DNA from: an uncultured Verrucomicrobiae bacterium
GTDB taxonomy: Bacteria; Verrucomicrobiota; Verrucomicrobiia; Chthoniobacterales; UBA10450
Length of the DNA: 64,000 nt
Direction: 5' to 3'
NCBI GenBank assembly: GCA_963726745.1
Contig: CAVSDR010000004.1
Location: 96,001-160,000 of the forward strand
Shown: positions 2,430-60,153 of the stretch, piece after piece
How positions within the stretch are numbered: the first letter of the stretch is position 1
Layout of the letters: each line of letters opens with the position of its first letter
The notes under the pieces: model-generated
The model's input: only the letters and a program-made list of their open reading frames with translations
Databases searched by the model: none
Told to the model about the DNA's origin: nothing
Position numbers and translations under genes: made by a program

Positions 2430-3116
2430 CTACGCCGGGGCGGCCGGGAGAGACGCGACCACCCGGCCGTCGCGCAACTGGATCTCGCGCCCTGCGGCCG
2501 CCGCCACTTCCGCGCTATGTGTCACCACGATGAGCGTCGCCCGGCGCTCCTGGCCGATTTTAGCCAGCACTTTCATGACCTTCTCGGCCGCGACGGAATC
2601 GAGGTTGCCGGTCGGTTCGTCCGCGATCAAGAGGCTGGGCCGATGCACCAGCGCGCGGGCAATCGCCGTCCGCTGCTGCTCGCCGCCGCTCAGCTGATGC
2701 ACGAAATGCCGCTCGCGTTCCGCCAGGCCGACGAGCTCGAGGAGCTCGCGCGCGCGCCGCTCGGTTTCGCCTAACGAGACGCCCTGGAGGAGCAGCGGGA
2801 AACCGACATTCTCGAGCACGTTCATCGTCGGCAGGAGATTGAAAAATTGGAAGACCAGCCCGAGCCGGTGGCGTCGATAATCGGTCAGGGCGGCGTCATT
2901 CGCGGCGTGCAACGCCAGGTCGCCGACAAAAATTTCCCCGCTGGTCGGCGTGTCCAGGCCTGCGATCAGATGCATCAGCGTGCTTTTGCCGCAGCCGCTC
3001 GGCCCGGTGATGGCGACAAATTCGCCCTCGGCGATCTCCAGCGAGACGCCATCGACCGCATGCACCGGGCGGTCGCCGCTCGTATAATGGCGGGTGACGT
3101 GGCGCAGCGAGATCAA
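2430..3116 (-). CDS. ABC transporter ATP-binding protein (LolD/MacB-like)
   Basis: Walker [17 protein letters not shown] signature, [11 protein letters not shown]-loop VTHS. Confidence 0.92.
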
Positions 3117-3888
3117 GGGTGCTTTATCCGCCAGCGACGCGGCCCGCGCAAATTGCCGGACGGACTTCCGGCTGGTTGCCGAGACCGAAGACTACGCCGT
3201 GGTCGACAAACCGCCGTTTCTCTTAGTCCACCCGACCAAGCCCGATGGCCCGCGCACGCTCTGGGGCGAGCTGCGCCAGCTCTTTGCCTACGAACTCGCG
3301 AATGGCGGCCAGGTCTCGATCGTCAATCGACTCGACCGCGAAACCAGCGGGCTGGTGCTGGTGGCGAAAACTGCGCGAGCGGCCCGCGAGTTTGGCCTGC
3401 AGATGCAGCGCGGCGAAATCGCCAAGGAATATCTCGCCGTGGCCTGGGGCTGGCCGGAGTGGGACGCGACCACGCTCGATCTCTCGCTCGCGCGGCAGGG
3501 TGCGCACAGCTTGTCGGCTATTTATCTCAAGCAGGCGCCGCATCCGGCGGGCGCCGCGGCGGTGACGCACTTCGCGGTCGAGCGCCGCTTCGAACGCGCC
3601 ACTTCCGCAGGCCAGAAGTTTTCCGTTATCCGCGCAACCCCGGTGACCGGCCGCACCCACCAAATCCGCGTGCACCTGGCCGAGCTCGGGCATCCCATCG
3701 TCGGCGACAAACTCTACGGCCCGGACGAACGCTGCTATCTCGAGTTTATCGAGACCGGCTGGACCGCGTCGCTCGAGCAGCGGCTCCTGCTCCCGCGGCA
3801 CGCGCTCCATTCCGCGAAGCTGGCCATCGCAGGCGTGGGCAGCTGGACCTGCGAGCTGCCCGACGATCTTCGAGCGTTTCTCGCTTAG
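3094..3888 (+). CDS. RluA family RNA pseudouridine synthase (true start probably TTG near 3153)
   Basis: VDKPPFLLVHP, NRLDRETSGL catalytic motif, TGRTHQIRVH, HPIVGDKLYG, LHS. Confidence 0.9.
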   Translation: MTWRSEIKGALSASDAARANCRTDFRLVAETEDYAVVDKPPFLLVHPTKPDGPRTLWGELRQLFAYELANGGQVSIVNRLDRETSGLVLVAKTARAAREFGLQMQRGEIAKEYLAVAWGWPEWDATTLDLSLARQGAHSLSAIYLKQAPHPAGAAAVTHFAVERRFERATSAGQKFSVIRATPVTGRTHQIRVHLAELGHPIVGDKLYGPDERCYLEFIETGWTASLEQRLLLPRHALHSAKLAIAGVGSWTCELPDDLRAFLA

Positions 3889-4529
3889 CGCTCGACCTTG
3901 ATGTCCGCGAAGCGGATCACCTTCCCGCCGAAATCGTGATAGGTCGATAGCTGGAGCCCGCCGAAATCCTGATACTTGTCCCAGGTAGCGTGCATCGTGG
4001 TGTCAGGCTTCGGGCTGTAATCCCAGGAGCGAACCAGCTTGGTCGCCGGGTCAACGTAGAGGACATACTGGTCGTTAGGCGTCAGGCCCACTTTGCCGAA
4101 TTGCATCCGGAGCGCTTCCAGCTCCGCACCGTCGATCGATTTCTTTCCTTCGGCGGTCAGGGTCACGCCAGGATCGAGCACCTTCAATGGCGCGAGCAGC
4201 CAGTAGGCGTCGTTCGTCCAGCGCGCGTAGGCCGCCTTGGCGTTCTCGTCGTTGCCGGGATTGGCCAGGTTCACGGTTACGTCTTTGTCTTTCCACTTCA
4301 CGTGATCGGTCTGAGCGGCCACGTCCCAGTCGTGCGTTGCGGAAACGAGCTCCTTTCCCTGGTCTTCGACGATGAAGGTGAATTGGAGCCGCTTCACCTG
4401 GCTCCAGTTTTCGCCGCCGCTCGCTTTCCAGACTTCCTTCGCCAATTGCTGCGCCCGGGCGTCCTCCGCGCGCGCCTGGAAGCCAAGGGAAACGGAGAGC
4501 AAGAGAACGGGAAGAAGCAGCGATTTCAT
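3885..4529 (-). CDS. Secreted hypothetical protein
   Basis: Signal peptide MKSLLLPVLLLSVSLGFQARA; NDAYWLLAPLK and GLTPNDQY conserved-looking blocks; host-like codon usage. Confidence 0.75.
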   Translation of the reverse strand: MKSLLLPVLLLSVSLGFQARAEDARAQQLAKEVWKASGGENWSQVKRLQFTFIVEDQGKELVSATHDWDVAAQTDHVKWKDKDVTVNLANPGNDENAKAAYARWTNDAYWLLAPLKVLDPGVTLTAEGKKSIDGAELEALRMQFGKVGLTPNDQYVLYVDPATKLVRSWDYSPKPDTTMHATWDKYQDFGGLQLSTYHDFGGKVIRFADIKVER

Positions 4530-4597
4530 GAGGAGGAAGCTGCCAGCCGCCGCGCGCATTGCAATCACTCGCGCTCATCCTATCGTAGCGCGCGCTC

Positions 4598-5218
4598 ATG
4601 ATTTTCCACCGCCTTTCCCTGTTCGTTCTTGCGCTTACGCTTGCGGCCGTGCCGCTGGTTTCCGCCGGCACCGAAGCCGTCAGCCGGCATCTTGGCGGCG
4701 CCACGGAACTGGTCGCGCCGAGCTTCGAAGTCGCGGCCGAAACCTCTTACCTGCTCGGCTCTTTTGCGAATCCGAACAGCTATGAGGTTGGCGCGCTTTT
4801 CGTGACTGCCCGTTGGCGCTGGGGCAAGATCGAGCGGCCCGGTTTTTGGCGCGGTTACAACCAGGTCTACTTCCTCGGGATGGCCGAGCCGATCTTTCGC
4901 GGCCCGGAGAACTTCTACTACGGAGTTAGCGCCGGTTTCCGCTACAACTTCGTCCAGCCGGGCGCGCGCCTCGTGCCTTACGTCAGCGGCGGCGTCGGCC
5001 TCGGATGGATCGACAGCCACGCGAACGTCTTCGGCGCGCAAGGCCAGGATTTTACTTTCAACATCCTGACCGCGCTCGGCGTTTCCTATCGCCTGAACGA
5101 TCGCACCAGCCTGACCGTCGGCGCGCTTTACCAGCATCTTTCCAACGGCGGCCAGACCGATCCCAACCCGAGCCTTAATCTTTTCGGCCCGCAGGTCGGC
5201 CTGACCTGGGCGTTTTAG
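4598..5218 (+). CDS. Acyloxyacyl hydrolase / PagL-like lipid A 3-O-deacylase beta-barrel
   Basis: Signal peptide, alternating beta strands, YQHLSNGG (HxSN) motif, NPSLN, C-terminal Phe. Confidence 0.8.
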   Translation: MIFHRLSLFVLALTLAAVPLVSAGTEAVSRHLGGATELVAPSFEVAAETSYLLGSFANPNSYEVGALFVTARWRWGKIERPGFWRGYNQVYFLGMAEPIFRGPENFYYGVSAGFRYNFVQPGARLVPYVSGGVGLGWIDSHANVFGAQGQDFTFNILTALGVSYRLNDRTSLTVGALYQHLSNGGQTDPNPSLNLFGPQVGLTWAF

Positions 5219-5226
5219 ACAGCGAG

Positions 5227-5841
5227 ATGGCGGAAGAAAACGTCCTCGTCGTCCGGCGCAGTCTCCTGGACGAGCTGGGCACTTTTCAGGGTTTGAACTT
5301 CGAGCCGGAGAAATATCTCGGCGCGCTCCTTTCGCGCGGAAATAATTTCTTTCTCCCGCGCGCGCAGGCGGAGAACGATCCGACGCACAAGCAGCTCATC
5401 CCTTACGTGCTCGTGGCGCACGAAGGTAAGGTGCTGCATTACGTGCGCGGGAAAAAAGCCGGCGAGCAGCGCCTGGTCGCGAAAGGTTCCATCGGCATCG
5501 GCGGGCACATGAACGACACCGACGAGTCGCTTTTTGCCTGGGACGAAGCGGCCTACCGCGCCGGGGTCGAGCGCGAGGTCACCGAGGAAATTAAAATAGG
5601 CAGCACTTTCACCGACCGGATCGTGGCGCTCTTGAACGACGACAGCACCGAGGTCGGACGGGTGCACCTCGGGATCGTCCATGTCTTCCAGTTGGCGGAA
5701 GCGAAAGCCGAGAAGCGCGAGTCGATGATTACCAACCTCGCCTTCCTCAGTCGCGCCGAGCTCGAGGAGAAACGCGACGCGCTCGAGACCTGGTCGCAGC
5801 TCTGCCTGGACTCGTTAGACCGGCTCCTCGCGGCTCAATAA
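5227..5841 (+). CDS. NUDIX-like predicted phosphoesterase
   Basis: AENDPTHKQLIPY, SIGIGGHMN, REVTEE, NDDSTEVGRVHLG. Confidence 0.8.
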   Translation: MAEENVLVVRRSLLDELGTFQGLNFEPEKYLGALLSRGNNFFLPRAQAENDPTHKQLIPYVLVAHEGKVLHYVRGKKAGEQRLVAKGSIGIGGHMNDTDESLFAWDEAAYRAGVEREVTEEIKIGSTFTDRIVALLNDDSTEVGRVHLGIVHVFQLAEAKAEKRESMITNLAFLSRAELEEKRDALETWSQLCLDSLDRLLAAQ

Positions 5842-6215
5842 CGCGGACGCCCGCCCCAGAGGACGGTGCCGTTCTGGATGACCACCCGGTAACGCTGTTT
5901 CCCGGTGTAGGAGCCGAATTGGTTCCGCGCATTGACCTTGAAGTCGACCACGTAGCCGACGAAACGCTCGCCGCTCCGCGTCTTGTATTCGCCCGGTTTG
6001 GGCGGGGCGTCCCAATCGATCACCGCGCTCGCGGGGTCGGCCAGCTTCGTCTCCAGCCAGCGCTCGACGATCGACTTGTAACCAAGCGGCGGCTGACCGT
6101 AGACCGCTGGGTCGCCGCGCGTGGGGATGACTTCGCTGGGTTTCTGCGCCGGGACCAGCGGCAGGCCGGTGCAGAGAAGCGCCAGCGCGAGAAGCATCGT
6201 TTTCGTTCTGCTCAT
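5835..6215 (-). CDS. Secreted hypothetical protein
   Basis: Signal peptide; LADPASA and VNARNQFGSYTG motifs. Confidence 0.7.
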   Translation of the reverse strand: MSRTKTMLLALALLCTGLPLVPAQKPSEVIPTRGDPAVYGQPPLGYKSIVERWLETKLADPASAVIDWDAPPKPGEYKTRSGERFVGYVVDFKVNARNQFGSYTGKQRYRVVIQNGTVLWGGRPRY

Positions 6216-6253
6216 GCGGAAAACTTACGCCGCGGGGCGGACATGGTCGAGCG

Positions 6254-7913
6254 CTACGGCTGCGGATTAGCGAGCAATCTCCAAAAAAACGGCGAGCCCG
6301 CCGGCACGTTGTGGTCCTCCATCGAGCTCGGCGCCCACGGCTGCGGCGAGGCCGGCCCGGTCGAAATCACCGACCAATTCCGCAGGTCGGGCGAGCGCTC
6401 CAAAGTGTAGGCAAAACCAAAGAGCGCGGTGTAGGCGAACATCGCCGTCGGGCGTCCACTGCCGATCACCAACCGCGGCGGAAACTCCCGCTGCGCCAGC
6501 TCCGCCGGGTCTTCCCGCGCCGGCAGGAGAAAACGCAGCGCCTGCGGCAAACGCGCGGCCCAAGCGGCTTCGTTGTGCGCCTGCCCGCAGCCGCCAACAA
6601 ACGTGACCTCGCCATTCGCGGCGTAGCCTTGCCCAAGGTGAGTATCGAACATTGCGAGCGCGTTGTTCCAATCGCTCGCCGGCTCGGCGGTGCCGAAATC
6701 CAGATAGACCCGGAGCGGCTTCTTCGAGCCGGCATTTACCTGCGCGACATAGTTCGGCGCGATCCACCAGGCGCTCGAAAAGACGCCGGCCCTGCCGAAG
6801 ACCGGGAACTCGCGCGCGAAATAAAGCGAGATCAAACCGCCTAACGAGGAGCCGGCGATGACGGTGTTCTTCGGATCGTTCAAGGTGCGATAGGTCGTAT
6901 CGACGTAAGGCCGCACGTTGTTGATCACGAAATTGGCGTAGGCGTCGCCACGGCCTTGAGTGCCCTGATAGGAATCCGTCGGCGGCATGTATTCCGGGAT
7001 GCGCGCGGCGGTGTTATCGATCGCCACCAGGATGGCCTCGCGCATCCGCCCCTGCCCGATCTCGCGCGTGGCCGTGGCGTCCGCGCTCCAGGAACCGAAG
7101 GAGCCGCCGGGATCGAAAACGTTCTGCCCATCGTGCAGGTAAAGCACCGGGTAACGGCGCGTGCTGTTCTGGGGGTAAGCGCGCGGCAGATAAATGCGGA
7201 TGTTGCGCCCGGCGATATTCGGCGCGGTCGAGTTGACGAACTGCGTGACGATCTGCGGCGGGCTCACCGTGGCCGGCGGTTGATACGAGAAAACGTTCCC
7301 GTCCTGCACCTGGAAAACGTCGAGATCGGTGAGGTAATTTCCGCCGCCCGGCGGGTTATCGTAGTGCCCGGCGCCGTCCGTGAAGACGAACTCGAGCGCC
7401 TCGCCTTCCACGCCTACGCCGCTGATTTTAAACAGCGACTCGCCCGTCGACGCGCCCAGCACCGACCTTGGCCATGGCCGCGGCGACGAAGGTGCCGTTG
7501 GAGTTATAGAAGAGGTTGGTCGTGTTCCAGCCGCTCAGGTAGTAGATCGTTTTCCCGCGATAAGGCGGCTCCGGCGCGGGCGGGATGGTGCGGGTGAGAT
7601 CGCTCGTTAGCCAGGTGGCGTTGCTCGAGTTGCACCAGGCGGAGTTCGCGGTGCTGCGCGCGAGAAAGCGATACTGCAACTGCGTCCCTGCCTGCACCGC
7701 CACCTGCGCGGTCCAAACGTTGCCCGCGGTGTAGCGCAGCTTGATCGCGCGGGTGACGTCCCAGTTCCCAAGGTCCGCATGATTGCCGGAAACGAAGACG
7801 CTGTTCCCGAAGCCGACGTCGCCGGTGTAGGAAAACGTGACCGTTTCGCGTTGCGGGCTGGAAGCGAAGACCGAAGTCGCGAGGCAAACAAACAGGAGGA
7901 GGGCGAGGCGCAT
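6254..7913 (-). CDS. Secreted CBM20 (starch-binding) + alpha/beta-hydrolase esterase; one +1 frameshift near 7444
   Basis: N-part: GNSVFVSGNHADLGNWD (CBM20). C-part: YPVLYLHDGQNVF, GSSLGG nucleophile, HNEAAW. Removing one G joins GRVDG to ESLFKIS. Confidence 0.85.
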
Positions 7914-7970
7914 GGGAAGCGGGCCACCTTGCACGGCGCGCCGCGGGAAGACAAGCGGCGCCACCGCGAT

Positions 7971-10662
7971 CTACCCAGTGGTGCGCAGGCCGCTGGCGAT
8001 CGCGTTCACGGTCACGAGCAGCTGGATAAAAAGCGGATCGCTGGAAATCTCCGTGGCGTGCTCCGCCGCGCGCCATTCTCGCAGAAGCTGGATCTGCTGC
8101 CGGTGGAGCATGGCCAGCCCGGAATGGCGCAGCTGGAGCACGCGCGCCAGCCGCGGCCGGCGCGCGAGCAGGTCCGCGCCGAAGATCTGCTCGAGCAGTC
8201 TCCGTGTGCGGATGTATTCCGCTTCGATCAATCCAAAGACGCGCGCGCGCGTCGCCTCGTCCTCCACCAGCGCGGAGTATTCCCGCATCAATTCGAGATC
8301 AGCCTGGAGCACGCTCGTGCTCACATTCATCAAGAGATACCGCAGCGGCGGCCAATCCGGCGCCTGCGCGCGCAGCGCCTCGAAGCTCGCGGGATCGCGC
8401 GCCAGCAAATCCTCCAAGGCCGCGCCCACGCCATACCAGCTCGGGAGATAAAAGCGCGCCTGGCTCCAGGAAAAAACCCACGGAATCGCGCGCAGATCGT
8501 TCAAGCTCGAGCGCCCGCTGCGCCGGGCCGGGCGCGACCCGATGCGGCTCGACTCGATCACATCCAGCGGCGTCGCCTCCTTGAAAAACGTTAGAAAACC
8601 CTCGGCCTGCAGGAGCTCCTCGTAAGCTTGCCGGCTAATTTCCGTGAGCTGCTCGATCACCGGCTGCAATGCGTGCGCCGGCGCGCTCGTCTCCGCGCGG
8701 CCGATGGTGGTGGCCGCCGCGCCCGCCAGGAGCAGCTCGAGATTGCGCACCGCGGTGATGTGGTTGGCGTACTTCTGCGCGATCGTTTCCCCCTGCTCGG
8801 TCATGCGCAGGTCGCCGCTGCGCGCGGCCGGCGGAAGCGCGTTCAGAAAACGGTGCGTCGGCCCGGCGCCGCGGCTGATCGTCCCGCCGCGCCCGTGGAA
8901 GAAACGGATGCCTAACGAGTGCTTGCGCGCGACCGCGGCCAGTTCCTCCTGCGCCCGGTAAAGGCACCAATGGCTCGCGAAGATGCCGCCATCCTTGTTG
9001 CTGTCGCTGTAGCCGATCATCACCTGCTGGACCGCCTGCGCGCCGCCGCTCAGGAGGCGTTGCGCTTCCAGGCTGCGACGCGTGACCGGGTGCGCGAGAA
9101 ATTCATCCAGCACCTCGGCGGCGCGCCCGAGATCCTCCACCGTTTCGAAAAGCGGCACCACCGGCACCCGGCAGACCAGCCCCTCCGGCGTGCCGACCGC
9201 GAGCCCGGCTTCGCGCGCGAGCAGGTAAACCACGAGCAAGTCGGAGGCGTTCCGCGTCAGGCTCACGATCAGCGAACCCACGCCCCCGGGGCCGTGCGCC
9301 TGCAAATAATTAGCCAGCACTTTCAGGCCGTCGCGCACCGCCGTGGCTTCCGCGCCGACCTCGGCATCCGGCTGCGCAAACGGTCGCGAAGTCGCCAGCT
9401 CCCGCTCGAGAAACTCCCGGCGCGCCGACCTCGTCCCAGCCGGAGAAACTTTCCCTCGGCCACGCCCGCCGCCGTGAGCAATTGCTCCAGCGCGAGCTCA
9501 TGCACCCGGCTGTTCTGCCGCAGGTCGAGCGCCGCCAGATGAAAGCCAAAGGTCTGCACCAGGCGCATCACCGGCTCCACATCGGCCTCGGCCAGGCGGG
9601 CCGCGCCGATCTCCCGGAGGGAAGCGCGCAGAAAGCGCAGGTCCTCCATCAACTCGTTAGGCGAAGCATAGTCCGGTAGCCGGGCCACGATCAGGCTGGC
9701 AAATTGCCGCCAGGGCTCCTGCGGGTTGCGCAGGAGCGCCTTCTGCCCGCGCTTCCCGAGCTGCGCCGCGACCGCGGCCACGCGCTCGAGCAGCGTCGCC
9801 GGCGGTTCCTGCAGAAGCGCGGCCAGGCTCAGGCGCGCGGCCAAGGTCGAGAGACGCCCGTGCAGGAACTCGAGCGCGTTTGCCCGCAGCGTCTGCAAGG
9901 TGCGCGCGGTCACCTCCGCGGTGACTAACGAGTGGCCGTCGCGGTCGCCGCCGACCCAGTTCCCAAAAGCCAGGCGCGGGAGCTGCCCGGGGTCCTGCAG
10001 GAGTGCGGGATCGAAGCCGGTTTCCGCCCAGGCCGCGCGCAGCCGGGCGTCGAGCACCGGGAGGGCGTCGGGAAAAACTTCGCGCAAGTAGTGGATCACG
10101 TTCCGCAGTTCGGCGGTGATGTCGGGCTTGCGGATGAGGATTTCGCCCGCGCGCCAAAGGCGCTCGAGCACCGCCTTGATTTCGTCGCGCAGCAGCCGCC
10201 GCTCGAGCGGCGTCCACATCTGGTTTTCGCAGCGCACCAGCAGGAGATAGAGCTCGCGGTGGCAGCCGAGCGCGGTCGCGCGTTTCGCCTCCGTCGGGTG
10301 CGCCGTGAGCACCGGCTCGACCCGGAGCAATCGGCAAAGCGCTGGCTATTTCCTCCGCGCTCCGTCCATTCGCCGCAAGGGTGCGCAAGGCGCGGCCCCA
10401 GCTGCCACTGGTGCCGGCGAGACCCTCGGCCGTTTCCTGCGCCCGGCGATGTTGCGCGGCCGCGTTTTCCTCCGCGAGGTTGAGCAACTGGAAGGCGATC
10501 GATTGCGCCTGCGCGACCGCCTGGGAGGAGGTTGCGCTGCGAGGGCTCGTTCGCCGACGAGATCGCGGCGGCGACCTCCGCTTCGCCCAATTCCTCGAGC
10601 ACCTCGCAAAAACAGCGGAGCAGGAAGGCGTAGTCCCGCTCAGCTTTTTCCATCTCGACCAT
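7971..10662 (-). CDS. ppc: Phosphoenolpyruvate carboxylase, split by about four +1 frameshifts (near 10542, 10331, 9450, 9430)
   Basis: LLNLAEEN, VLTAHPTE, WVGGDRDG, VMIGYSDSNKDGG, FHGRGGTISRG, LRAIPWVFSWSQ, C-terminal RTTG, spread over consecutive frames. Confidence 0.92.
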
Positions 10663-10718
10663 GTGTGGTCTTCCGCGGGCCCGGCCTGCGCCAGGCGGTG
10701 AAAGTGCTGTCTAAATTC

Positions 10719-11846: not shown

Positions 11847-11850
11847 CGCG

Positions 11851-12732
11851 CTACTTACGTCCTTTCATCACGGTGAGCAAAGTATCCGCCATCGTCGCGG
11901 GCGTCTCCGCGACCGCGATCCCCGCGGCCTTGAGCGCTGCGATCTTTCCTTCCGCGGTCCCCTTCCCGCCGGAAACAATCGCCCCGGCGTGCCCCATCCG
12001 GCGTCCCGGCGGCGCGGTCGCCCCGGCGATAAACGCGGCCACGGGCTTCCGGCAATTTTCCTGGATCCAGGCCGCGGCCTCTTCTTCCGCGGAGCCGCCG
12101 ATTTCGCCGATCAAAATCATCGCCTCGGTCTCAGGGTCGTCATTGAAAAGCTTGACCGCATCGAGGTGCGACATGCCATTGATCGGATCGCCGCCGATGC
12201 CGATGCAGGTCGATTGCCCGTAGCCGCGCGAGGTCAGTTGCCAGACGGCTTCGTAGGTCAAAGTGCCGGAGCGGGAGATCACGCCGACGTTGCCGGGCTT
12301 GTGAATATAGCCGGGCATGATCCCGATTTTGCATTGGCCGGGCGTGATGATGCCGGGGCAATTCGGACCGATCAGGCGCGACTTCGAGCCCGCCATCTGC
12401 GCTTTCACGCGCATCATGTCCATCACTGGAATGCCTTCCGTGATGCAAATGACCAATTCCACCCCGGCATCGACCGCTTCGAGAATGCCATCGGCCGCTC
12501 CCGCCGCGGGCACGAAAATAACCGACACATTGCAACCGGTCTCCTTGCGCGCTTCGGCCACGGTGTCGAAGACTGGAACCTTCGACTCAAACGTTTGCCC
12601 GCCCTTCCCCGGCGTGACCCCGGCGACGACGTTGGTGCCGTATTCCATGCACTGCTTTGCATGAAAGCCGCCGGCGCTGCCGGTGATGCCCTGGACGCAG
12701 AGACGGGTGTTTTTATCGACGAGGACGGACAT
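11851..12732 (-). CDS. sucD: Succinyl-CoA synthetase alpha subunit
   Basis: [36 protein letters not shown]. Confidence 0.97.
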
Positions 12733-12823: not shown

Positions 12824-12824
12824 A

Positions 12825-50304: not shown

Positions 50305-50490
50305 GGTTGGCCGCGGGCAAAATAGAGCGCGCCCGCTCTCCCGCCAACGCCGAGATGCACCAAGGCGTCGGCAATTTAGCCGACGACTTCAAAGGTGGGC
50401 CGGCCCTCAGTGACGACGCGGGGCCTTGGCCATGGCTCCCCGGCCCGAACCACGCCCGTGGAGATTCCCACGGACGTGGTGCGAGTGCCG

Positions 50491-52640: not shown

Positions 52641-52977
52641 GGGTGTTTGTGGTGGGTGGGTTGGGGGCTGCAGGAACGGCCACATGAGCCGTCAGGGGGG
52701 CGGAGAGTGAATGAATGCGAACGAATTGTCAGCAATAATCTCCAGACAAGGTGAACGTCACCATACCGGCGAGGGCCGCATTCAGGGAAGAAGACGCACC
52801 CGCAGGAACAGGCCAGGACTGCCGCTGGTCGTGGCGGAAATCTGCGCGGGGCCAGCGCTGCTCGCGGTCAAGTCGCTCGCTGCGCCCGTGGCCGACCAAT
52901 GGGGCGTAGCCGGCAGCTCGGGAAATCCAAACCGTTCACATCAGCCATCCCCACGGCGATCCCCCGTATCGTCGATT

Positions 52978-53172
52978 TCATAAGCCCCGCCCGACCGAAC
53001 CCGTTGTCTCGCCGTTAAGTCCGCCCAGGTCCTTGTTCTTCGAGCCCGTGCCGCTAAAGCGCACCGGGTGCAGATTCGCGTTCCCCGCATCGAAAGCATA
53101 GCCGACCACCTGGCCAGAGTGATTCATCGCCGTCGCCGCCGCGATCGTCCCACCTCACGTCCCCAGATCCGT
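52978..53172 (-). pseudogene. Remnant of an HAF-family extracellular repeat gene
   Basis: Manual translation: TDLGT*GGTIAAATAMNHSGQVVGYAFDAGNANLHPVRFSGTGSKNKDLGGL; internal stop, no start. Confidence 0.65.
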
Positions 53173-53593
53173 CGCCAAGGGATACCTCGCCCGCTCCCGC
53201 CGCCCGTCCCGGAGCGGAGATGTTTTAAGCCAAAACCAACCCACCGACCCAGCGCCGCGTCCGATTCTTTCTTGGTAAGACTTGGGTGATCATGGGCGGA
53301 TGCCCCCGGGAAGTGTCCACCCGCGATAGGCCCGCTTACCAAAGTCGCCGCCGCCCGCGGCCGAGCATTGTCCCGCCCGCCACGCTCAAGGAAAAAATCC
53401 TCGCCTTTGAAACCGGGATTCACCTAATACCCGTTAGTCGGCTGAAGCGCGCCACCTCACCCACGCAGCCAATATACAGGCGGATGAAGATACCTCCACC
53501 CCTCGTCGCTTCGACTGCCCTTATGCTTACCCCTCGACGCCTCTTTCGCCTTCCACTCCTGCCCGTGATAGGTGTAAAAAATTACGCCTTTGA

Positions 53594-53623
53594 AGACGTA
53601 GTTACGTCTAATTCTCGTTAGGT
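53594..53623 (+). other. attI-like integron recombination site (first cassette boundary)
   Basis: AGACGTAGTTACGTCTAATTCTC-GTTAGGT: a GTTRRRY core preceded by a GTCTAAT L-like box, with no attC stem upstream. Confidence 0.55.
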
Positions 53624-53635
53624 CTCAACCGCGCC

Positions 53636-54058
53636 GTGGAAGTCTACGTTCACAAAGCTGGTCAGCAGCATGGCCCATTCACGGACGAAGAGGTGATCGC
53701 TTCGCTGCGCAATGGCGCATTCGCGGCTGACGATCTCGGGTGGCGCGAAGGCCAAGGTGACTGGCTTCCTCTTGCGCAGCTCTACCTGGCCGCTTCGCGA
53801 CCGGTGGGCGCAGCGCCTCCACCTGTGCTAACGGTCTCCCGCGCACAGAAGAAGTCGAAGGTTGAGTTCGCGGGATGGGGCGCGGCACTTCAGGCTATCG
53901 GCCTGCTACTTTGCTTCACTATTGTAGGCGCGCTTATGGGTATTCCACTGATGATTATCGGCGGGCGCATGTCACGCAAACTCATCTGCACACACTGTGG
54001 CAATCAAACCACAGCAGAAGCGAAGATTTGTTCGGCTTGTGGCGCACACTTCGCATGA
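53636..54058 (+). CDS. Cassette 1: GYF_2/DUF4339 domain + TM hairpin + zinc ribbon
   Basis: QQHGPFTDEEV...WREGQGDW; two hydrophobic helices; CTHCG...CSACG. Confidence 0.8.
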   Translation: MEVYVHKAGQQHGPFTDEEVIASLRNGAFAADDLGWREGQGDWLPLAQLYLAASRPVGAAPPPVLTVSRAQKKSKVEFAGWGAALQAIGLLLCFTIVGALMGIPLMIIGGRMSRKLICTHCGNQTTAEAKICSACGAHFA

Positions 54059-54071
54059 AAACGCAAAAGAG

Positions 54072-54195
54072 ACCTGACCAGGCGATGCAGCGAACCGCTG
54101 GCCGCTCCGCGTTCCCACTTTCGATGACTTCCACATCCTACCTGCAGCGGCGTGCGCTCTCGCCAGCGGTCGCCTGATCTTGGGTCTCGTTAGGC
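54072..54195 (+). other. attC site 1
   Basis: R'' ACCTGAC, L'' GATGCAGC, inner stem GCGAACCGCTGGC/GCCAGCGGTCGC, L' GC(C)TGATC, R' GTTAGGC. Confidence 0.85.
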
Positions 54196-54205
54196 GGCTA
54201 CGCAC

Positions 54206-54935
54206 GTGAGCTACTTCATTTATCAAGAGAGCGAGACATACGGCCCGTACCCGCTTGAGCAGTTGCGAGCGCTTTGGGCCGAAGGGCGTGTTCAGACTGG
54301 CGCCCTCTTCTGCGAAGAGGGCGCCGAGGAGTGGCGAGATATTGCGGAGCTGCGATCGCGGCTGGAGCCGCAGCCGCGGCTGCCCGCCGCGGTTCGTGCG
54401 TCGCCACCATTACCGGTACAGCAGAAAAGCGCTGCGCCTCGCAAAAACACAGCTCTTGTCGCCGCTGGTGTCGTTGGACTATTCGCTTTCTTCATTATCA
54501 TTGGCGTTGTCTCGCAGAGTACGACACCGACGCCAGTTGTAGGCGGGCGTAGTGCCGCCGCCGGAGTGATGTACCGATGCAGAGTCGGCGCTTCGCAGCG
54601 CCGACTACAACCGGACCGCACAGCTATTGAATCGAATTTCCGACGAGTATCCCGACAGCTCGCAGGCACAGACAGTTCGCGACCTGGCGTCATTCCTTCG
54701 CAACCGGCAAGCGAGTCGCGAAGGCCCGTTCACGGCGGGCGAAGCGGAGCGCCTTCGCGCCGTAATGGATTCATGGGAGAAGATCCGTGCGAATTACCGC
54801 GTCACCACACCAGAGAAGCGTCGTGCCTTGGAAGCGATTTTCGGGCGTGAGACTTTCCAGACGACAGATGTCGGCTTGGAGAGCATCAGCACATCCGCTA
54901 CTAAGCTTCGAGATAGCGTGGACAGAGCGCGATGA
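54206..54935 (+). CDS. Cassette 2: GYF_2/DUF4339 domain + TM + TPR-like C-terminus (+1 frameshift near 54572)
   Basis: TYGPYPLEQL...EGAEEW; TM; reframed DAESALRSADYNRTAQLLNRISDEYPDSSQA; stop just before attC 2. Confidence 0.75.
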
Positions 54936-54942
54936 CACCGCC

Positions 54943-55067
54943 GCCTAACCATGCGATGGAGCGAAACGGCGGACCGCTCTGCAATTCACTTTTGAGATGA
55001 CTACTTCTCTTCCACTTCGAGCGGCGCGAGCCCTCGCCAGCGGTCGCTCATCTTGTTCTCGTTAGGT
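54943..55067 (+). other. attC site 2
   Basis: R'' GCCTAAC, L'' GATGGAGC, L' GCTCATC, R' GTTAGGT; similar in sequence to attC 1. Confidence 0.88.
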
Positions 55068-55260
55068 GCTGAGACGTCGCGATGAGATTGCTGGCTAATT
55101 TCTCCGAACGGCCGTCGCGCGGCGCGGTGGCCCGCCGGGCGGACCGCCCAGCCTCCGGGGTCAGAGCTTGAATCTCGGCAGTTTTGGCGCTCTTCGGGCA
55201 CTGGCGGCGCCCCCTTTTTTTCTTGCCTAACGGGCGCTGCCTTTTCAAACATCGCGGCCT

Positions 55261-55950
55261 ATGGACGACTCTCAAAGGAACACGCTGGCGATGTTTAAGA
55301 CGGTGCGGACTTACCTGGGCGAGCATCAGTCGGTTTGGCAGGGGGTGCCGGCGATTGCGACGGTGAAGTCGGCCTTTTCGACGGTGGTGGACGGGATCGA
55401 TGCGGCGGTCGAGCGGCAGGAACAGCCTTCGACCGGAATCACCCAGGAGAAGCAGGATCGGCGCGATGTCCTGGAGGGTTTGATCCTTTCCCTGGGTCAC
55501 ACGGTGGCGGCTTATGCGGAGATGAGCGGGAACCACGCGATGGCCGCGGAGGTGGATTACACCCCGTCGCGGCTGGATACGATGAATGAGGAGCGGCTGG
55601 ACGATGCAGCCACGCGGGTGATTGACCATGCCAGTGCCCATATCGCCGACTTAACTGCGCAATATAACCTAACGAGTGCAATGGTGACGGCGCTGACGGC
55701 GGCGCGCGATGCCTTCAAGGCGGACCAGCCGAAACCGCAGGCGAAGATTTCGGCCAAGGCCGGGGAGACGGCCTCGCTCCCGGAGAAGTTCCGGCAGGCG
55801 CGCACCCTCCTGCGCCGGCAGCTCGACAAGCTGATGATGGCTTTCCGCGCGACCAACCCGGAGTTCTATGCCGGCTACCTGAGCGCGCGGGTGGTGATCG
55901 ACCGGCGCGGGCCGGGAAAGCCGGCTCAACCCACGCCACCGACGCCCTAA
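55261..55950 (+). CDS. Hypothetical all-alpha protein (229 aa)
   Basis: Clean ORF with GC3 bias; amphipathic helices; C-terminal LDKLM...NPEFYAGYLSARVVID block. Confidence 0.8.
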   Translation: MDDSQRNTLAMFKTVRTYLGEHQSVWQGVPAIATVKSAFSTVVDGIDAAVERQEQPSTGITQEKQDRRDVLEGLILSLGHTVAAYAEMSGNHAMAAEVDYTPSRLDTMNEERLDDAATRVIDHASAHIADLTAQYNLTSAMVTALTAARDAFKADQPKPQAKISAKAGETASLPEKFRQARTLLRRQLDKLMMAFRATNPEFYAGYLSARVVIDRRGPGKPAQPTPPTP

Positions 55951-56030
55951 GGGCGCAAATCGCTGGGAGGGAGGCGTTTTCGGATGCTCGCGAAAGGGAT
56001 CGACCAGAGCGGGAGCCGATCTCGGCGGAG

Positions 56031-56387
56031 CCAGACAGCCAAATGGAGGCGCCAAGGTGCAGATCATCTGGCCCAAACGGCAACTCATCTTCGCCAAACG
56101 GCAACTCATCTTCGCCAAACGGCAATTCATCTTCGCCAAACGGCAATTCATCTTCGCCAGACGGCAATTCATCTTCGCCAAACGGCAATTCATCTTCGCC
56201 AGACGGCAACTCATCTTCGCCAGACGGCAACTCCTCTGCGCCAAAGTGCAGGCTATTTTCCCCAGACGGCATCTCGCATGGCCCGGACGGCAACTCCTTT
56301 TCCCCGGATGGCAACTCCCCGGGCCCGGACGGCAGCTCGTGTGGGCCTGAGCGCCTCTCCCCTTCTCCAGACGCCCAGCCGAACCTT
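56031..56387 (+). repeat. 21-bp-period tandem array: 8 near-identical core units plus about 9 degenerate flanking units
   Basis: Core consensus CCARACGGCAAYTCATCTTCG at 56073-56240; the phase is kept from 56031 to about 56387. Confidence 0.9.
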
Positions 56388-56405
56388 GCGGGAGGACGCC
56401 GCGTG

Positions 56406-56732
56406 ATGGAAACGGACGAGTCCCGACCGACGGCGGGCGCCGGCGAAGGGCTGGACCTCGACCGGGTGCTGGCCGCGATCGGGGATGGATCGCGCTGGCG
56501 CATCCTGGTGGCGCTGGCGGAGCGGGACAATGTGCTGGTAAACGAGCTGGCGGAGCTGCTGGGCCGGAATGCGAGCACGGTTTCGAAGCACCTGCGTTTC
56601 CTGCGCGAGGCCGGCCTGGTGGAAGCGGGCCGGGGGCGGCTCTACCGGATCGCGCCGCAGCTCGCACTCGACCGGGAGAAGGGCGAGCTGGACCTCGGCT
56701 TTGCCGTGCTGCGGTTCCATCCTGCTGGCTAA
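56406..56732 (+). CDS. ArsR/SmtB family winged-helix regulator
   Basis: GGAGGA RBS at 56391; AIGDGSRWRIL...VNELAELLGRNASTVSKHLRFLREAGLV. Confidence 0.85.
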   Translation: METDESRPTAGAGEGLDLDRVLAAIGDGSRWRILVALAERDNVLVNELAELLGRNASTVSKHLRFLREAGLVEAGRGRLYRIAPQLALDREKGELDLGFAVLRFHPAG

Positions 56733-56898
56733 AAACGGCCGGGCGCGCCTGGAAGGAGGTGCCGGGCGGGCGTCGACGGTGGACCGGGAGCGTTCCGGTC
56801 GCGCGAGGCGCGATGGGGCACCCATGTCTCCTCCCTTAGGAAACCTCAAGAGAATGATTTTTCTGGCCATTCCGAAGCGGTCTCGTTAGACCAACCGA

Positions 56899-57666
56899 AT
56901 GAAATCCCCCCAAAACCTCCTGCTCGCGAGCGGCCTCGCGCTCCTCCTTCCCTTTCTGACCGCCACGGCGGTCCACGCCCAGAGCGTGGTGGTGCCCGGC
57001 GGAAATGCCGGCACCGAAGGAAATCAGAACAACCTCATCCCATTTAGCTTTAACAATAATCGCTACCAGCAGGTCTACGGCGCCTCGGCCTTTGCCGGAG
57101 TGCCGGCGGGCGGAGCGTATCTCACCCAGATCGCCTTCCGGCCAGATGCGGAATTCGGCGCCGCGTTTGCCAGCATCCTGCCGAGCGTGCGGATCGACCT
57201 GGCCGTGACCATGGCGGCGGTGGACGGTCTGAGCACGACGTTTGCGAGCAATCTCACCAGCGGGTCGACGATCGTTTACGGCGGGGTCAGTGGCGCCGCG
57301 CTTGCCCTCTCCAGTGCTTTCACCGGTCCGGCCGGCGGACCGAAAGCCTTCGATATCATCATCACCTTCACCACCCCGTTTTTCTACGATCCGGCATTGG
57401 GGAACCTGCTGCTCGACGTGCGGAACTTTGGCGGCGGAACGACGACCCTTTTCGACGCGCAAAGCATGCTGAACGACAGCATTTCCCGGGTGGGCACGTT
57501 TGGCGGCGGCGTGGGCTCGGCCACGGGGAACTTTGCGGACTCTCTCGGCCTGGTGACGAAGTTCACCTACGCGCCGGCGGCTGCCCCGGAGAATGCGGAG
57601 AGCGCACTGCTCCTCGGCCTGGGCGCGGGTGCTCTCTTTTGGCTGCGGCGGCGGGTGGCGGCGTAA
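56899..57666 (+). CDS. Secreted protein with a PEP-CTERM/VPDSG-CTERM-like sorting tail
   Basis: Signal peptide; C-terminus APENAESALLLGLGAGALFWLRRRVAA. Confidence 0.75.
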   Translation: MKSPQNLLLASGLALLLPFLTATAVHAQSVVVPGGNAGTEGNQNNLIPFSFNNNRYQQVYGASAFAGVPAGGAYLTQIAFRPDAEFGAAFASILPSVRIDLAVTMAAVDGLSTTFASNLTSGSTIVYGGVSGAALALSSAFTGPAGGPKAFDIIITFTTPFFYDPALGNLLLDVRNFGGGTTTLFDAQSMLNDSISRVGTFGGGVGSATGNFADSLGLVTKFTYAPAAAPENAESALLLGLGAGALFWLRRRVAA

Positions 57667-57754
57667 ACGCGGCGGGATGGCAGGGCGCGGGAGGTGATGG
57701 GCGCGGCCCGCGTTTACTCGTGCGCGCGAGACTGCGTGATGGCAGATTGCCAGC

Positions 57755-59149
57755 GTGATGAAGATGGCTCTCTGCCTCGCGTGCCTGCTCCTGGCTTTTT
57801 CCCCGGCAGCGCCGGGCCGCACTGAGATCGCCAAAGGCGACGTGGTGGTAGTGCCGCTGGAGGGGGAAGTCTCGCCCTCGCTCTTTTTCTTCCTCCGGCG
57901 CGCGGTGAAAAAGGCGGAAGCCAATGGAGCCTCCGCGATCGTCTTTGAAATGGACACCTACGGCGGGCGGCTGGACAGCGCGGAGGAGATCACCAAGCTG
58001 CTCAACCGCACCACGCTTCCGACCTACACCTTCATCAACACCAACGCCGGTTCCGCGGGCGCCTTGATCGCGCTTGCGACCCAGCACATTTACATGGCGC
58101 CGGTGAGTGCGATCGGCGCGGCCGCCCCGATCCAATCCGACGGCAAAGATCTCGGCGCGACTGCGAAGGAGAAGACGATCTCGTATTGGTCGGCGCTGGT
58201 CCGCGGGACCGCGAACCGCAACAGCCACAACCCGGACGTGGGCGAGGCGTTCATGAACAAGGAGAAGGAAGTGAAACTCGGCGACCGGGTGCTTCATCCC
58301 GCCGGCAGCCTCCTGACCTTGAACGCGCAGGAAGCGACCGCGCGGCACGACGGGAAGCCGCTGCTCGCGGAAGGCATCGCGGAGTCGGTCGCGGAAGTGG
58401 TGCAAAGGGCGGGGCTGAAGGGCGAGACCGTGCGGCTGGAGCCGGCGGGCTTTGAGCGGCTGGCGTTTTGGATCACCGCGCTCGCGCCCTTGCTCTTGTT
58501 AGGCGGCATGCTCGGGGCGTATCTCGAGTTCAAGCTCCCGGGCTTTGGCTTGCCGGGAATCGCGGCCGCGGTTTGCTTTGGGCTTTTTTTCTTTGGGCAC
58601 TATTTCGCGGGGCTCGCGGGTTGGGAGACGGTGGCGCTCTTCGGCCTGGGCGTGCTCCTGGTGCTGGCGGAGATTTTGTTCTTCGCGCACTCCACGATCA
58701 TCATCGGATTAGTCGGCGTCTTCTGCATTCTCGGCTCCCTGCTCTGGGCGATGATCGATCGCTTTCCGGGGCAGACTTTTCTCCCGACGAGCGCGATGTT
58801 GCGCGTGCCCATTATGAATCTCCTTCTCGCCATGGTCGCCGCCGCTTTCGCCATCGCGCTGCTCGCGCGTTACCTCCCGCGCACCAGCGTCTACCGGCGC
58901 TTCGTCTTGTCGGCTGATATCCCGAGCGGCCCTTCGATCCTGGGCGATGCGCCGCATTTCCCGCCGCCCGTGCGGGTCGCGACCGGCGCGGAAGGAACGG
59001 CGGTCACGTCCCTGCGCCCGAGCGGCAAGGCACGCTTCGGCGAGCACGTGGTCGACGTCGTCACCGAGGGGGAATTCATCTCCGCGGAAAGCGCGGTCGC
59101 GGTCGTCTCGACCGACGGCATGCGCGTGGTCGTGAAGGTGCGCGCTTGA
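57755..59149 (+). CDS. NfeD family membrane-bound serine protease
   Basis: MDTYGG, AGSAGALIAL, IGAAAP, TM bundle, C-terminal LRPSGKA...VDVVTEGEFI. Confidence 0.9.
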   Translation: MMKMALCLACLLLAFSPAAPGRTEIAKGDVVVVPLEGEVSPSLFFFLRRAVKKAEANGASAIVFEMDTYGGRLDSAEEITKLLNRTTLPTYTFINTNAGSAGALIALATQHIYMAPVSAIGAAAPIQSDGKDLGATAKEKTISYWSALVRGTANRNSHNPDVGEAFMNKEKEVKLGDRVLHPAGSLLTLNAQEATARHDGKPLLAEGIAESVAEVVQRAGLKGETVRLEPAGFERLAFWITALAPLLLLGGMLGAYLEFKLPGFGLPGIAAAVCFGLFFFGHYFAGLAGWETVALFGLGVLLVLAEILFFAHSTIIIGLVGVFCILGSLLWAMIDRFPGQTFLPTSAMLRVPIMNLLLAMVAAAFAIALLARYLPRTSVYRRFVLSADIPSGPSILGDAPHFPPPVRVATGAEGTAVTSLRPSGKARFGEHVVDVVTEGEFISAESAVAVVSTDGMRVVVKVRA

Positions 59150-59150
59150 G

Positions 59151-59948
59151 ATGTTCGGGAGCTTGAAGGAACGACGCCGACGCCGGCTGCGGGCGGAGCC
59201 CATCCCGGAAGCGTGGCGCGCGATCATCGGGCGGAATCTGCCCTTCTTCGCCCACCTCCCGCAGGCGGACCAGGCGGAGCTGCTCGGCCACGCGCAGGTT
59301 TTGCTGGCGGAGAAAGGCTGGGAAGGCTGCGGCGGCCTGGAATTAACCGACGAGATCAAGGTCACGATCGCGGTGCAGGCCGGCCGGCTCCTCCTGCATC
59401 GGCCGACTGACTATTATCCACGGCTGCTGACCATCCTGATTTATCCGTCCGGCTTCATCGTCCCGCAGGAGCAACCGTTGGGCGACAGCGACATTTGGCA
59501 GGAAGGAAAAGAAGGCCGCCTGGGCGAAACCGGACGGCGGATGGGCTCGCTCGTCCTGGCGTGGGACACCGTGCTGGCAGATGCGCTCGATCCCTCCGAC
59601 GGGAAGAATCTCGTGCTGCACGAGTTTGCTCATCAACTGGACTTCGAGGATTCCGTGGCCGATGGCGCGCCCGTGCTGGGCTCGCGGAGCGATCGACGCT
59701 CCTGGGCAGAGGTGATGCGGATCGAATACGCCACGCTTTGCGCCGCGGTCGATACCGGCATTCCGACGCTGCTCGACGAATACGGCGCGACCGATCCAGC
59801 GGAGTTTTTCGCGGTCGCGACGGAAGCGTTTTTCGAGCGGCCGCTGGCGCTGCGCCGCTGGCATCCGCGGCTCTACGGCGAGCTGCAACATTTCTTCCGG
59901 CAGGATCCGCTGCTTTCGTCGAGCGAGCCGGCGTCGTTTGACCGCTAA
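59151..59948 (+). CDS. MtfA-like M90 zinc metallopeptidase
   Basis: NLVLHEFAHQLD, YGATDPAEFFAVATEAFFE. Confidence 0.92.
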   Translation: MFGSLKERRRRRLRAEPIPEAWRAIIGRNLPFFAHLPQADQAELLGHAQVLLAEKGWEGCGGLELTDEIKVTIAVQAGRLLLHRPTDYYPRLLTILIYPSGFIVPQEQPLGDSDIWQEGKEGRLGETGRRMGSLVLAWDTVLADALDPSDGKNLVLHEFAHQLDFEDSVADGAPVLGSRSDRRSWAEVMRIEYATLCAAVDTGIPTLLDEYGATDPAEFFAVATEAFFERPLALRRWHPRLYGELQHFFRQDPLLSSSEPASFDR

Positions 59949-59952
59949 GGGG

Positions 59953-60153
59953 TCAGCCGCCGGCGACGACGCGGATGAACTCGATCTGGTCGTTCTCGGC
60001 TAACGAGTGCTCGGCCCACTCGCGTTGATGGAGCGCGGTGCCGTTGTGCTCGATCAGGATGCTGTTCGGATGCAGGCCGAACTGGTCGGCTAATTCCGCC
60101 ACGGTGCGCGCGCCGCGGGTCTCGGCGCGTTCGCCATTCACGCGCACGGTCAT
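59953..60153 (-). CDS. thiS: Sulfur carrier protein
   Basis: MTVRVNGE...IEHNG...VVAGG C-terminal diglycine. Confidence 0.92.
   Translation of the reverse strand: MTVRVNGERAETRGARTVAELADQFGLHPNSILIEHNGTALHQREWAEHSLAENDQIEFIRVVAGG

What the first reader, a model, noticed from the sequence alone, without database searches (positions are those of the whole stretch)
2771..60007. Highly iterated non-palindromic octamer CTCGTTAG/CTAACGAG spread through coding DNA (DUS/HIP1-like signal)
Seen: about 31 exact copies by manual scan. CTCGTTAG starts at 5811, 7603, 9653, 18191, 18625, 21550, 23848, 25539, 27234, 41775, 45029, 49708, 53614, 54186, 55058 and 56882. CTAACGAG starts at 2771, 6841, 8912, 9925, 10883, 19212, 19368, 23259, 35856, 36327, 40008, 41198, 44322, 55669 and 60000. 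About 10 more copies differ only at the outer base (4071, 13317, 14588, 17556, 20956, 22365, 25452, 43588, 49294, 49810). Many extend to CTCGTTAGGC. A base-composition estimate at about 66% GC predicts only 1-2 copies. Most lie in housekeeping genes (ppc, gltA, dnaG, ribD, thiS), in different frames, and force TTA/CTA/AGG codons that are otherwise rare here. Three overlap stop codons. Orientation is balanced (16 vs 15). Established: Neisseria/Pasteurellaceae uptake sequences and cyanobacterial HIP1 behave this way, whereas Chi and KOPS are strand-polarised. Inference: an undescribed DNA-uptake, nucleoid-protein-binding or modification/recombination signal in this lineage.
Basis: partly seen in the sequence, partly recalled or inferred. 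Interest (0 to 1): 0.85.

Follow-up and report, generated by a model that had tools for sequence, protein, structure and literature searches.

The report
Uptake-like genome word matching integron site
A soil bacterium and its relatives write one short DNA word through their genes hundreds to thousands of times, much like the self-tags a few bacteria use to pick up their own DNA, and the word is spelled like the joining site of their integron gene cassettes.

Summary
Confirmed: 31 copies against 1.07 expected. The octamer is one face of TCGTTAGGC (1,312 copies genome-wide; 967 in genes against 21 in a synonymous shuffle). It is not replichore-polarised (51.8% leading strand; KOPS control 78.8%), thins out within about 250 bp of another copy and has shifted protein sequences. 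It runs through one soil Verrucomicrobiota family at 4-1,355 per Mb (151 genomes) and stays low in 249 other genomes of the phylum. The scan noted this word before on other DNA. Added here: 61 of 63 attC sites from this family and one relative end in TCGTTAG, and 3 of the 31 window copies are integron sites; this genome carries a second, independent 15-bp word (1,296 copies) abundant in only one other of 151 genomes; a third word fills 37 other relatives; phages carry the word at host density. Best reading: DNA-uptake signal spread by molecular drive (0.5); competence genes are present. No reader was found; uptake is untested.

The parts
2771..60007 (.). Word 1 (M1), core TCGTTAGGC, graded profile W-N-N-A-C-TCGTTAG-G-C. 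Dispersed plus-strand octamer copies at 5811, 7603, 9653, 18191, 18625, 21550, 23848, 25539, 27234, 41775, 45029, 49708, 56882; minus-strand at 2771, 6841, 8912, 9925, 10883, 19212, 19368, 23259, 35856, 36327, 40008, 41198, 44322, 55669, 60000 (28 copies)
4071..49817 (.). Ten further M1 copies with the 7-mer TCGTTAG but another outer base: 4071, 13317, 14588, 17556, 20956, 22365, 25452, 43588, 49294, 49810
7971..11846 (-). ppc (in two reading frames) and citrate synthase, carrying M1 at 8912, 9653, 9925 and 10883 as Ser-Leu-Gly/Val and Pro-Asn-Glu
23259..23266 (-). One M1 copy that supplies the stop codons of two convergent genes (TAA of the Ku gene on plus, TAG of the gene 23259-24410 on minus)
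44277..45293 (+). ribD with M1 at 44322 (antisense, Leu-Thr-Ser) and 45029 (sense, Ser-Leu-Gly)
48487..50304 (-). dnaG with M1 at 49708 and 7-mer copies at 49294 and 49810
53606..53623 (+). attI-like site holding the copy at 53614; ends like the first crossover site next to intI in three relatives (TTCTC then GTTAG). No integrase gene beside it
   Evidence: sequence; read by eye against L085, L087, L090; inference
54072..54195 (+). attC site closing the first cassette; holds the copy at 54186
   Evidence: 72-76% identical over full length to attC sites in integrase-linked arrays of relatives
54943..55067 (+). attC site closing the second cassette; holds the copy at 55058
   Evidence: 81-87% identical over 121-123 bp to attC sites in integrase-linked arrays of relatives, E to 8e-37
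2560..63545 (.). Word 2 (M2), WTAGMCRRCRNNHTS, 26 copies: 2560, 3507, 5215, 9310, 10335, 10700, 13583, 14132, 14518, 17492, 18402, 22014, 25808, 26086, 29032, 31350, 31925, 32359, 42373, 45929, 49298, 50376, 55084, 56718, 60210, 63531
49294..49312 (+). Overlap of M1 and M2 on a shared TTAGCC (52 such composites in the genome)

Best explanation
TCGTTAGGC is a DNA uptake signal. A sequence-specific reader in the competence pathway (pilus tip or periplasm; not identified) favours fragments that carry the word; these enter through ComEC and recombine into the chromosome, so each mutation towards the word is carried along and the word fills every position that proteins tolerate (molecular drive). 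A second copy close to the first adds little, hence the local thinning. Readers with other specificities were gained separately, giving M2 in this genome and M3 in another part of the family. Shown: the genomic footprint, its distribution, the presence of competence genes.
For: Non-palindromic, both strands equally, 51.8% leading against 78.8% for KOPS. 967 in genes against 20.9 in 10 within-gene synonymous shuffles. Used in all four open frames, 967 of 2,065 amino-acid-compatible places filled; 208 of 267 in G092 against 1 of 42 in word-poor G077. Encoded tripeptides are over-represented: SLG 768 against 422-580 for permutations, PNE 252 against 65-182; in G092 SLG 74 against GLS 18, as reported for USS/DUS (PMC2817400, passages). 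Graded, binding-like tolerance: positions 2, 8, 9 flexible, six positions strict, flanks the same in every frame and between genes. Occupancy falls to 0.20 within 100 bp of another copy (0.43 expected) and recovers by 200-300 bp; no such effect from M2. Poor in low-GC3 genes (0.14 per kb in the 0.65 bin against 0.58 in the 0.80 bin) and in accessory polysaccharide and surface loci, none in 16S rRNA, as reported for uptake sequences (PMC7811141, passages). Lineage-specific alternative words, like DUS dialects (PMC3630211, passages). ComEC in 143 of 151 family genomes; DprA 5 of 5, PilT 5 of 5, ComM 5 of 5 (4 over cut-off), secretins 5 of 5.
Against: No reader found: ComP_DUS 0 of 5 over cut-off; a pilin candidate failed. 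Competence genes are equally present in word-poor relatives and ComEC is in 10 of 14 control genomes. No inverted pairs in terminators (2 of 1,305 adjacent 9-mer pairs are inverted within 60 bp), a hallmark of DUS/USS. The thinning is weak in G154 and in G092, which even shows an excess of same-strand pairs under 50 bp. In this genome the ComEA-like nuclease gene has lost its helix-hairpin-helix part, a remnant of which lies on another contig. Phage DNA carries the word at host density while host accessory loci do not, which an intracellular reader would explain as easily. The three words share no common core (M3 lacks TAG), unlike DUS dialects. Uptake alone does not explain the match to the integron site.
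Confidence: 0.5

Rival explanations
1. Intracellular marking and repair, as proposed for HIP1: a methyltransferase or nicking enzyme reads the word, and biased repair or gene conversion turns near-matches into matches and keeps them.
For: A beta-class N6/N4 methyltransferase is conserved in 141 of 151 family genomes at about 70% identity. Some one-step neighbours are depleted (A6>G 7 against 22.9; T1>G 1 against 8.2). Phages match host density. The model is in PMC4390886 (abstract and passages).
Against: The enzyme is equally present in the word-poorest genome (G067, 71% identity) across a 300-fold range of density; its target is unknown. The word is asymmetric with a graded 14-bp profile. Other one-step neighbours are not depleted (T5>C 36 against 21.5). 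One enzyme cannot account for three unrelated words. A motif search found no C5 enzyme and only type I fragments besides (recalled motifs, so not exhaustive).
Confidence: 0.2
2. The reader is part of, or derived from, the integron system: an integrase or a tyrosine-recombinase DNA-binding domain acts on TCGTTAG(G/A)(C/T) genome-wide, so the word is a scattered attI/attC crossover site.
For: 61 of 63 attC sites end in TCGTTAG, and attI-like sites do too. The strict positions of M1 are the invariant ones of attC, and the best-tolerated changes at positions 8 and 9 (to A, 18-fold; to T, 26-fold) are the attC alternatives (small expected counts). Integrases are common (89 of 151 over cut-off) and rarer where the word is lowest (7 of 22 against 89 of 129). 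A 72% GC temperate phage carries CGTTAGGC 22 times in 18.7 kb.
Against: No integrase in this genome, in G024 or in the densest genome G092; one is present in the word-poorest, G067. Genus-level correlation is nil (rho 0.15, p 0.41). Only XerC, XerD and one weak 124-aa hit match an integrase profile here. Genome copies lack the attC partner arm (42 of 2,025 have one upstream against about 3% by chance, and 13 of these are true attC). attC uses GAT most (24 of 63) and T at position -4, the genome word GGC and A. M2 and M3 do not match att sites.
Confidence: 0.12
3. Binding site of a chromosome-organising protein (nucleoid-associated protein, or a loader or unloader of condensin) selected for even coverage.
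For: Thinning within about 250 bp, orientation-neutral, graded profile.
Against: Density varies 300-fold within the family and 16-fold within the genus; gaps of 10-25 kb are tolerated; the thinning is weak in two denser relatives; no candidate protein.
Confidence: 0.08
4. A self mark that protects DNA from a host nuclease or helicase (Chi-like but unpolarised); phages copy it.
For: Phage DNA holds the word at 140-740 per Mb, near or above its host where the host is known; in the 72% GC phage several copies sit between ribosome-binding site and start codon (read by eye). The patchy spread of M2 suggests a mobile determinant.
Against: No strand polarity; long word-free host loci survive; no nuclease identified; the phage loci L244 and L250 were found by the word itself, so the sample is biased.
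Confidence: 0.1

Closest known systems
Uptake signal sequence (USS) of Pasteurellaceae and DNA uptake sequence (DUS) of Neisseriaceae
   Same: Short non-palindromic word, hundreds to thousands of copies, both strands, inside genes, enriching the peptides it encodes, scarce in newly acquired DNA and rRNA, lineage-specific variants, competent-type gene set (papers seen as passages: PMC2817400, PMC7811141, PMC3630211, PMC1939737, 10.1101/2025.10.24.684340).
   Different: Other phylum; no inverted pairs in terminators; no ComP-family receptor; two unrelated words coexist in one genome and three in one family without a shared core; the main word equals the integron crossover site; uptake untested.
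HIP1 of cyanobacteria (with DmtA/DmtC methyltransferases)
   Same: Hyper-abundant, in coding DNA, strand-neutral, a conserved solitary methyltransferase in the lineage (PMC4390886 abstract and passages; PMC5861425 listing only).
   Different: Not a palindrome; no methyltransferase tied to the word; graded rather than sharp consensus.
Integron attI/attC crossover site (R box; the consensus GTTRRRY is recalled, not found by text search)
   Same: TCGTTAG is the end of 61 of 63 attC sites examined and of attI-like sites; three window copies and a 12-site array on contig C6 are real att sites without integrase (CALIN as defined in PMC4889954, passages).
   Different: About 2,000 other copies have no partner arm, lie inside core genes, prefer GGC, and do not track integrase presence.
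Chi, KOPS and other replichore-polarised words
   Same: Short, asymmetric, over-represented in core DNA.
   Different: No polarity: 51.8% leading against 78.8% for KOPS in the same genome.

Membership tests
DUS/USS | Short non-palindromic word, strongly over-represented beyond codon use | tested here: met
   967 against 20.9 in genes; among the top 8- and 10-mers of the genome
DUS/USS | [quoted passage not shown] | tested here: met
   663 leading, 616 lagging, p 0.20; KOPS control 253 to 68
DUS/USS | Encoded peptides enriched in the proteome | tested here: met
   SLG, PNE above all permutations; LTS, LTN, LTT, PND, LVR weak or not enriched in this genome
DUS/USS | Scarce in newly acquired DNA and rRNA | tested here: met
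   low-GC3 genes and accessory loci poor; none in 16S, three 7-mers further along the rRNA region; phages are an exception
DUS/USS | Inverted pairs forming terminators | tested here: not met
   2 of 1,305 adjacent 9-mer pairs inverted within 60 bp; close pairs depleted
DUS/USS | Type IV pilus and competence genes | tested here: met
   ComEC, DprA, PilT, ComM, secretins, pilins; ComEA-like gene truncated here
DUS/USS | ComP-family sequence-specific receptor | tested here: not met
   PF16732: 0 of 5 genomes over cut-off; two weak hits on the N-terminal part of pilins
DUS/USS | Word-dependent DNA uptake or transformation | not testable with these tools
   needs a culture
DUS/USS | Bias towards genome-maintenance genes | not tested
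   no genome-wide functional annotation was made
HIP1 | Palindromic sequence | tested here: not met
   sequence
HIP1 | Contains the target of a co-occurring methyltransferase | tested here: inconclusive
   a conserved methyltransferase exists (141 of 151), target unknown, no link to density
Chi/KOPS | Replichore polarity | tested here: not met
Integron attC | R'' and R' arms of a 100-150 bp element resembling integrase-linked attC (window 54072-54195, 54943-55067) | tested here: met
   single-strand folding gave no added support (z 0.56 and -0.97, first site folded without its first two bases)
Integron attC | Partner arm for the dispersed copies | tested here: not met
   42 of 2,025, at or below chance
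Complete integron | Integrase gene in the genome | tested here: not met
   TIGR02249 none at E 1e-30; only XerC/XerD; genome 94.7% complete

The most novel reading that the evidence does not exclude
The family has a DNA-uptake receptor tuned to the one word shared by its integron cassettes, the attI/attC crossover. It would fish gene cassettes out of soil DNA for the integrase (cassette capture from transforming single strands is shown in Vibrio cholerae, PMC12614218, abstract only), and the thousands of chromosomal copies would be the by-product of that bias. Swappable receptors would then explain M2 and M3, and the same target would explain CGTTAGGC in unrelated soil bacteria and their phages.
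Probability: 0.15. Interest if true: 0.93.

Novelty: new variant of a known kind. Interest (0 to 1): 0.74.

Why it matters
Sequence-specific uptake signals are described from two proteobacterial families. A large soil family with at least three independent words, gained and lost along its tree, two of them side by side in one genome, is a natural experiment on how such signals arise, what reads them and how far they bend protein sequences. If the match to the integron site is causal, it ties natural transformation to cassette acquisition by a mechanism not described. In practice the words could help transform these mostly uncultured bacteria and assign phages to hosts.

Tried and rejected
Assembly artefact or chance: rejected. 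Codon or protein-repeat effect: rejected; the other top words GTTGGCGTTG and GACTCCGACT look like Pro-Thr repeats and were not followed. RNA family: none in the window. Chi/KOPS: rejected. Terminator pairs: absent. Integrase presence as cause: not supported. Domesticated integrase-like gene: none beyond XerC/XerD and one weak hit. dif site with the word: not found with a recalled pattern. Two paralogous pilin operons with a DUF7305 protein (C3:584-587 kb, C6:623-626 kb; ComZ-like by analogy to PMC6561018, abstract only) as readers of M1 and M2: the C3 protein's orthologue is in only 14 of 36 high-density genomes and not found in G051 or G092; no solved relative by sequence; the C6 protein was not searched on its own and neither was folded. 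ComEA-like SNase-HhH protein: in 33 of 36 high-density genomes against 57 of 115 others (hand count), but also in word-poor genera, and density simply clusters on its tree (2 changes among 30 rows); kept as a weak lead. Conserved methyltransferase: no link to density. Site-by-site conservation: 58 of 138 7-mer sites shared with G154 (24.8 expected given compatible amino acids) and 19 of 78 with G092 (7.3), but for the 9-mer only 37 against 29.0 and 17 against 13.2, so most sharing follows from near-saturation. Amino-acid cost: none seen at M1 sites (0.642 against 0.656 in flanks), clear at M2 sites (0.580 against 0.683, p 1e-9). The reversed-word control of the genome search overstates background. 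The window attC has no match in plasmids. Five viral contigs with a family-type attC end are not word-rich. Of 55 viral loci found by a CGTTAGGC pair most hold only 2-4 copies. Literature: ten searches (listings only unless named) found no paper on this word; the library lacks most subscription journals and supplements were not searched.
Full report
Observation. All 31 octamer copies are at the stated places; shuffles give 1.07. The window is C4:96001-160000 of a 3.41-Mb genome in 7 contigs. Genome-wide there are 1,293 octamers, 2,025 TCGTTAG, 1,312 TCGTTAGGC and 820 CTCGTTAGGC. I called genes with my own hexamer model (3,001 of 3,197 kept for counts). In ten within-gene synonymous shuffles the octamer falls from 1,038 to 45 and the 9-mer from 967 to 21. 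23% of all TTA and CTA codons lie in the word; 181 of 887 TAA and 125 of 1,069 TAG stops do too.

Anatomy. With true sites frozen, changes at positions 2 (C to T), 8 and 9 are enriched 3- to 30-fold, while changes at the six other positions lie between 0.1 and 2.3 times the null. Upstream preferences (A/T at -7, A at -4, C at -3 from the G of GTT) hold in the four frames printed and in 222 intergenic sites. This is a graded, protein-binding type of profile (inference). Using GC skew to assign replichores, KOPS (recalled pattern) is 78.8% leading, M1 51.8% (p 0.20). Of 2,065 places where the amino acids allow the 9-mer, 967 have it; occupancy is 0.20 within 100 bp of another copy, 0.30 at 100-200 bp and about 0.55 at 300-2,000 bp. 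Two control words showed no thinning; G154 and G092 showed little, and G092 an excess of close same-strand pairs. The longest word-free gaps (10-25 kb) hold polysaccharide and surface-protein genes, judged by eye from protein starts.

Distribution. Named relatives are soil Verrucomicrobiae MAGs; two of them have 331 and 908 10-mers, a third 44. That the family is in Chthoniobacterales, probably the one holding Candidatus Udaeobacter, is my recall from the 16S fragment and no call's result; earlier scan notes also say Chthoniobacterales. In 151 family genomes of 34 genera the 9-mer runs from 4 to 1,355 per Mb, 36 at 300 or more, with 48-52% on one strand. In 16 genomes of other families of the order the 10-mer count is 0-14; in 249 other genomes of the phylum CGTTAGGC is at most 72 against 1,346 here. 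In orthologous genes the word fills 208 of 267 compatible places in G092 and 1 of 42 in G077, and its tripeptides are enriched. Four-fold sites are near saturation between these genomes (0.48 against 0.40 for G154), yet 58 of 138 7-mer sites are shared with G154; for the 9-mer the sharing is little above what high occupancy predicts (37 against 29).

More words. The genome has a second word, WTAGMCRRCRNNHTS: 1,296 copies, 996 in genes against 33.5 in shuffles, unpolarised, self-thinning, with no effect on M1 occupancy and lower amino-acid identity at its sites (0.58 against 0.68). Of 151 genomes only G051, of another genus, has it in bulk (735), G015 faintly (72), the other 148 at most 45; G051's version has its own flanks. 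These G051 results rest on a genome flagged unpublished. A third word, AAGATCGACA, found in G077, has 500 or more copies in 37 of 151 genomes (hand count; maximum 4,653) and 22 here; genus g41 has both M1 and M3.

The integron link. An earlier scan note pointed out that GTTAGGC is an integron core. I tested it: attC sites beside integrase genes of relatives end in TCTC-GTTAG-RY, as do those of a genome from another family without the dispersed word and of the word-poorest family member. Of 63 distinct attC ends collected by pattern, 61 have TCGTTAG, followed by AT 24, GC 18, GT 11, AC 8. The first sites next to three integrases end the same way. This genome has a 12-site array on C6 and, in the window, an attI-like site and two attC sites holding the copies at 53614, 54186 and 55058; folding did not add support. 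The other copies lack the partner arm. The integrase is over cut-off in 89 of 151 genomes but is not found here, in G024 or in G092, and is present in G067; medians are 106 against 79 per Mb (p 0.012, kin not independent), genus-level rho 0.15. The match is therefore real, but the integrase is not shown to be the cause, and M2 and M3 show that such words need no integron.

Phages. A 12.1-kb viral contig with terminase, portal and head protease has nine 9-mers, part of them by selection. Its terminase has 32-40% identical relatives in 2 of 251 family genomes: a 32.6-kb phage contig binned with G024 has 17 9-mers (520 per Mb; host 709) and an integrated prophage of about 50 kb in G184 has 7 (140 per Mb; host 86). 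A 72% GC temperate phage of unknown host has CGTTAGGC 22 times in 18.7 kb (0.42 expected). These are few cases and fit both uptake and an intracellular reader.

Machinery. ComEC is in 143 of 151 genomes; DprA, PilT, ComM and secretins are in all five genomes tested for each, word-poor ones included. No ComP. Three reader candidates were tested and none holds: a DUF7305 pilin, an SNase-HhH protein (33 of 36 high-density against 57 of 115, confounded by ancestry; truncated in this genome) and a family-wide methyltransferase (141 of 151).

Verdict. The footprint meets most genomic criteria of DUS/USS as given in the passages read, and fails two (terminator pairs, ComP). It works like an uptake signal with probability about 0.5; it is not filed as a member. 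Ten literature searches found no description, within an open-access library and without supplements. The scan itself reported the same 9-mer on other genomes; those notes are not independent support. What this report adds is the att-site identity with its limits, the second and third words, the local thinning, the phage densities and the failed reader candidates.

Noticed in passing
window 53606-55067: Small integron remnant: attI-like site, two cassettes and two attC sites, no integrase gene.
   Followed up: yes
G000 C6 about 736500-744800: Array of 12 attC sites without integrase (CALIN); cassette genes not annotated.
   Followed up: partly
window 7971-10330: ppc is in two reading frames (335 and 455 aa); sequencing error or pseudogene not decided.
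   Followed up: no
window 56080-56340: Run of near-tandem repeats of about 21 bp between a gene and a small regulator-like gene (seen).
   Followed up: no
window 55291-55950 and G000 C6 735529-736220: Similar-looking hypothetical genes lie right after both cassette arrays (by eye).
   Followed up: no
G000 C4 17230-17874 and C2 230178-230291: ComEA-like SNase-HhH gene is split: nuclease part alone on C4, helix-hairpin-helix remnant on C2; relatives have it whole next to a pfkB-like and a helicase gene.
   Followed up: partly
G000 C3 584422-586936 and C6 623578-626133: Two paralogous three-gene pilin operons ending in a DUF7305 protein, one beside dprA; both free of M1 and M2.
   Followed up: partly
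G000 C3 981251-982042: Solitary beta-class DNA methyltransferase conserved in 141 of 151 family genomes; target unknown.
   Followed up: partly
L172-L181 (G077): Third hyper-abundant word AAGATCGACA; a possible weaker word AAGTTGAG (104 per Mb against 13-19 in four other genomes).
   Followed up: partly
L244 378-18515: 72% GC temperate phage with CGTTAGGC at 1.2 per kb, several copies between ribosome-binding site and start codon.
   Followed up: partly
L003: A repeated element of about 14 copies dominates the word counts of this locus; possibly a repeat array.
   Followed up: no
G000 C1 and C6 1022961-1024328: A helicase gene on small contig C1 scores like the one at the end of C6; C1 may duplicate part of C6.
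   Followed up: no
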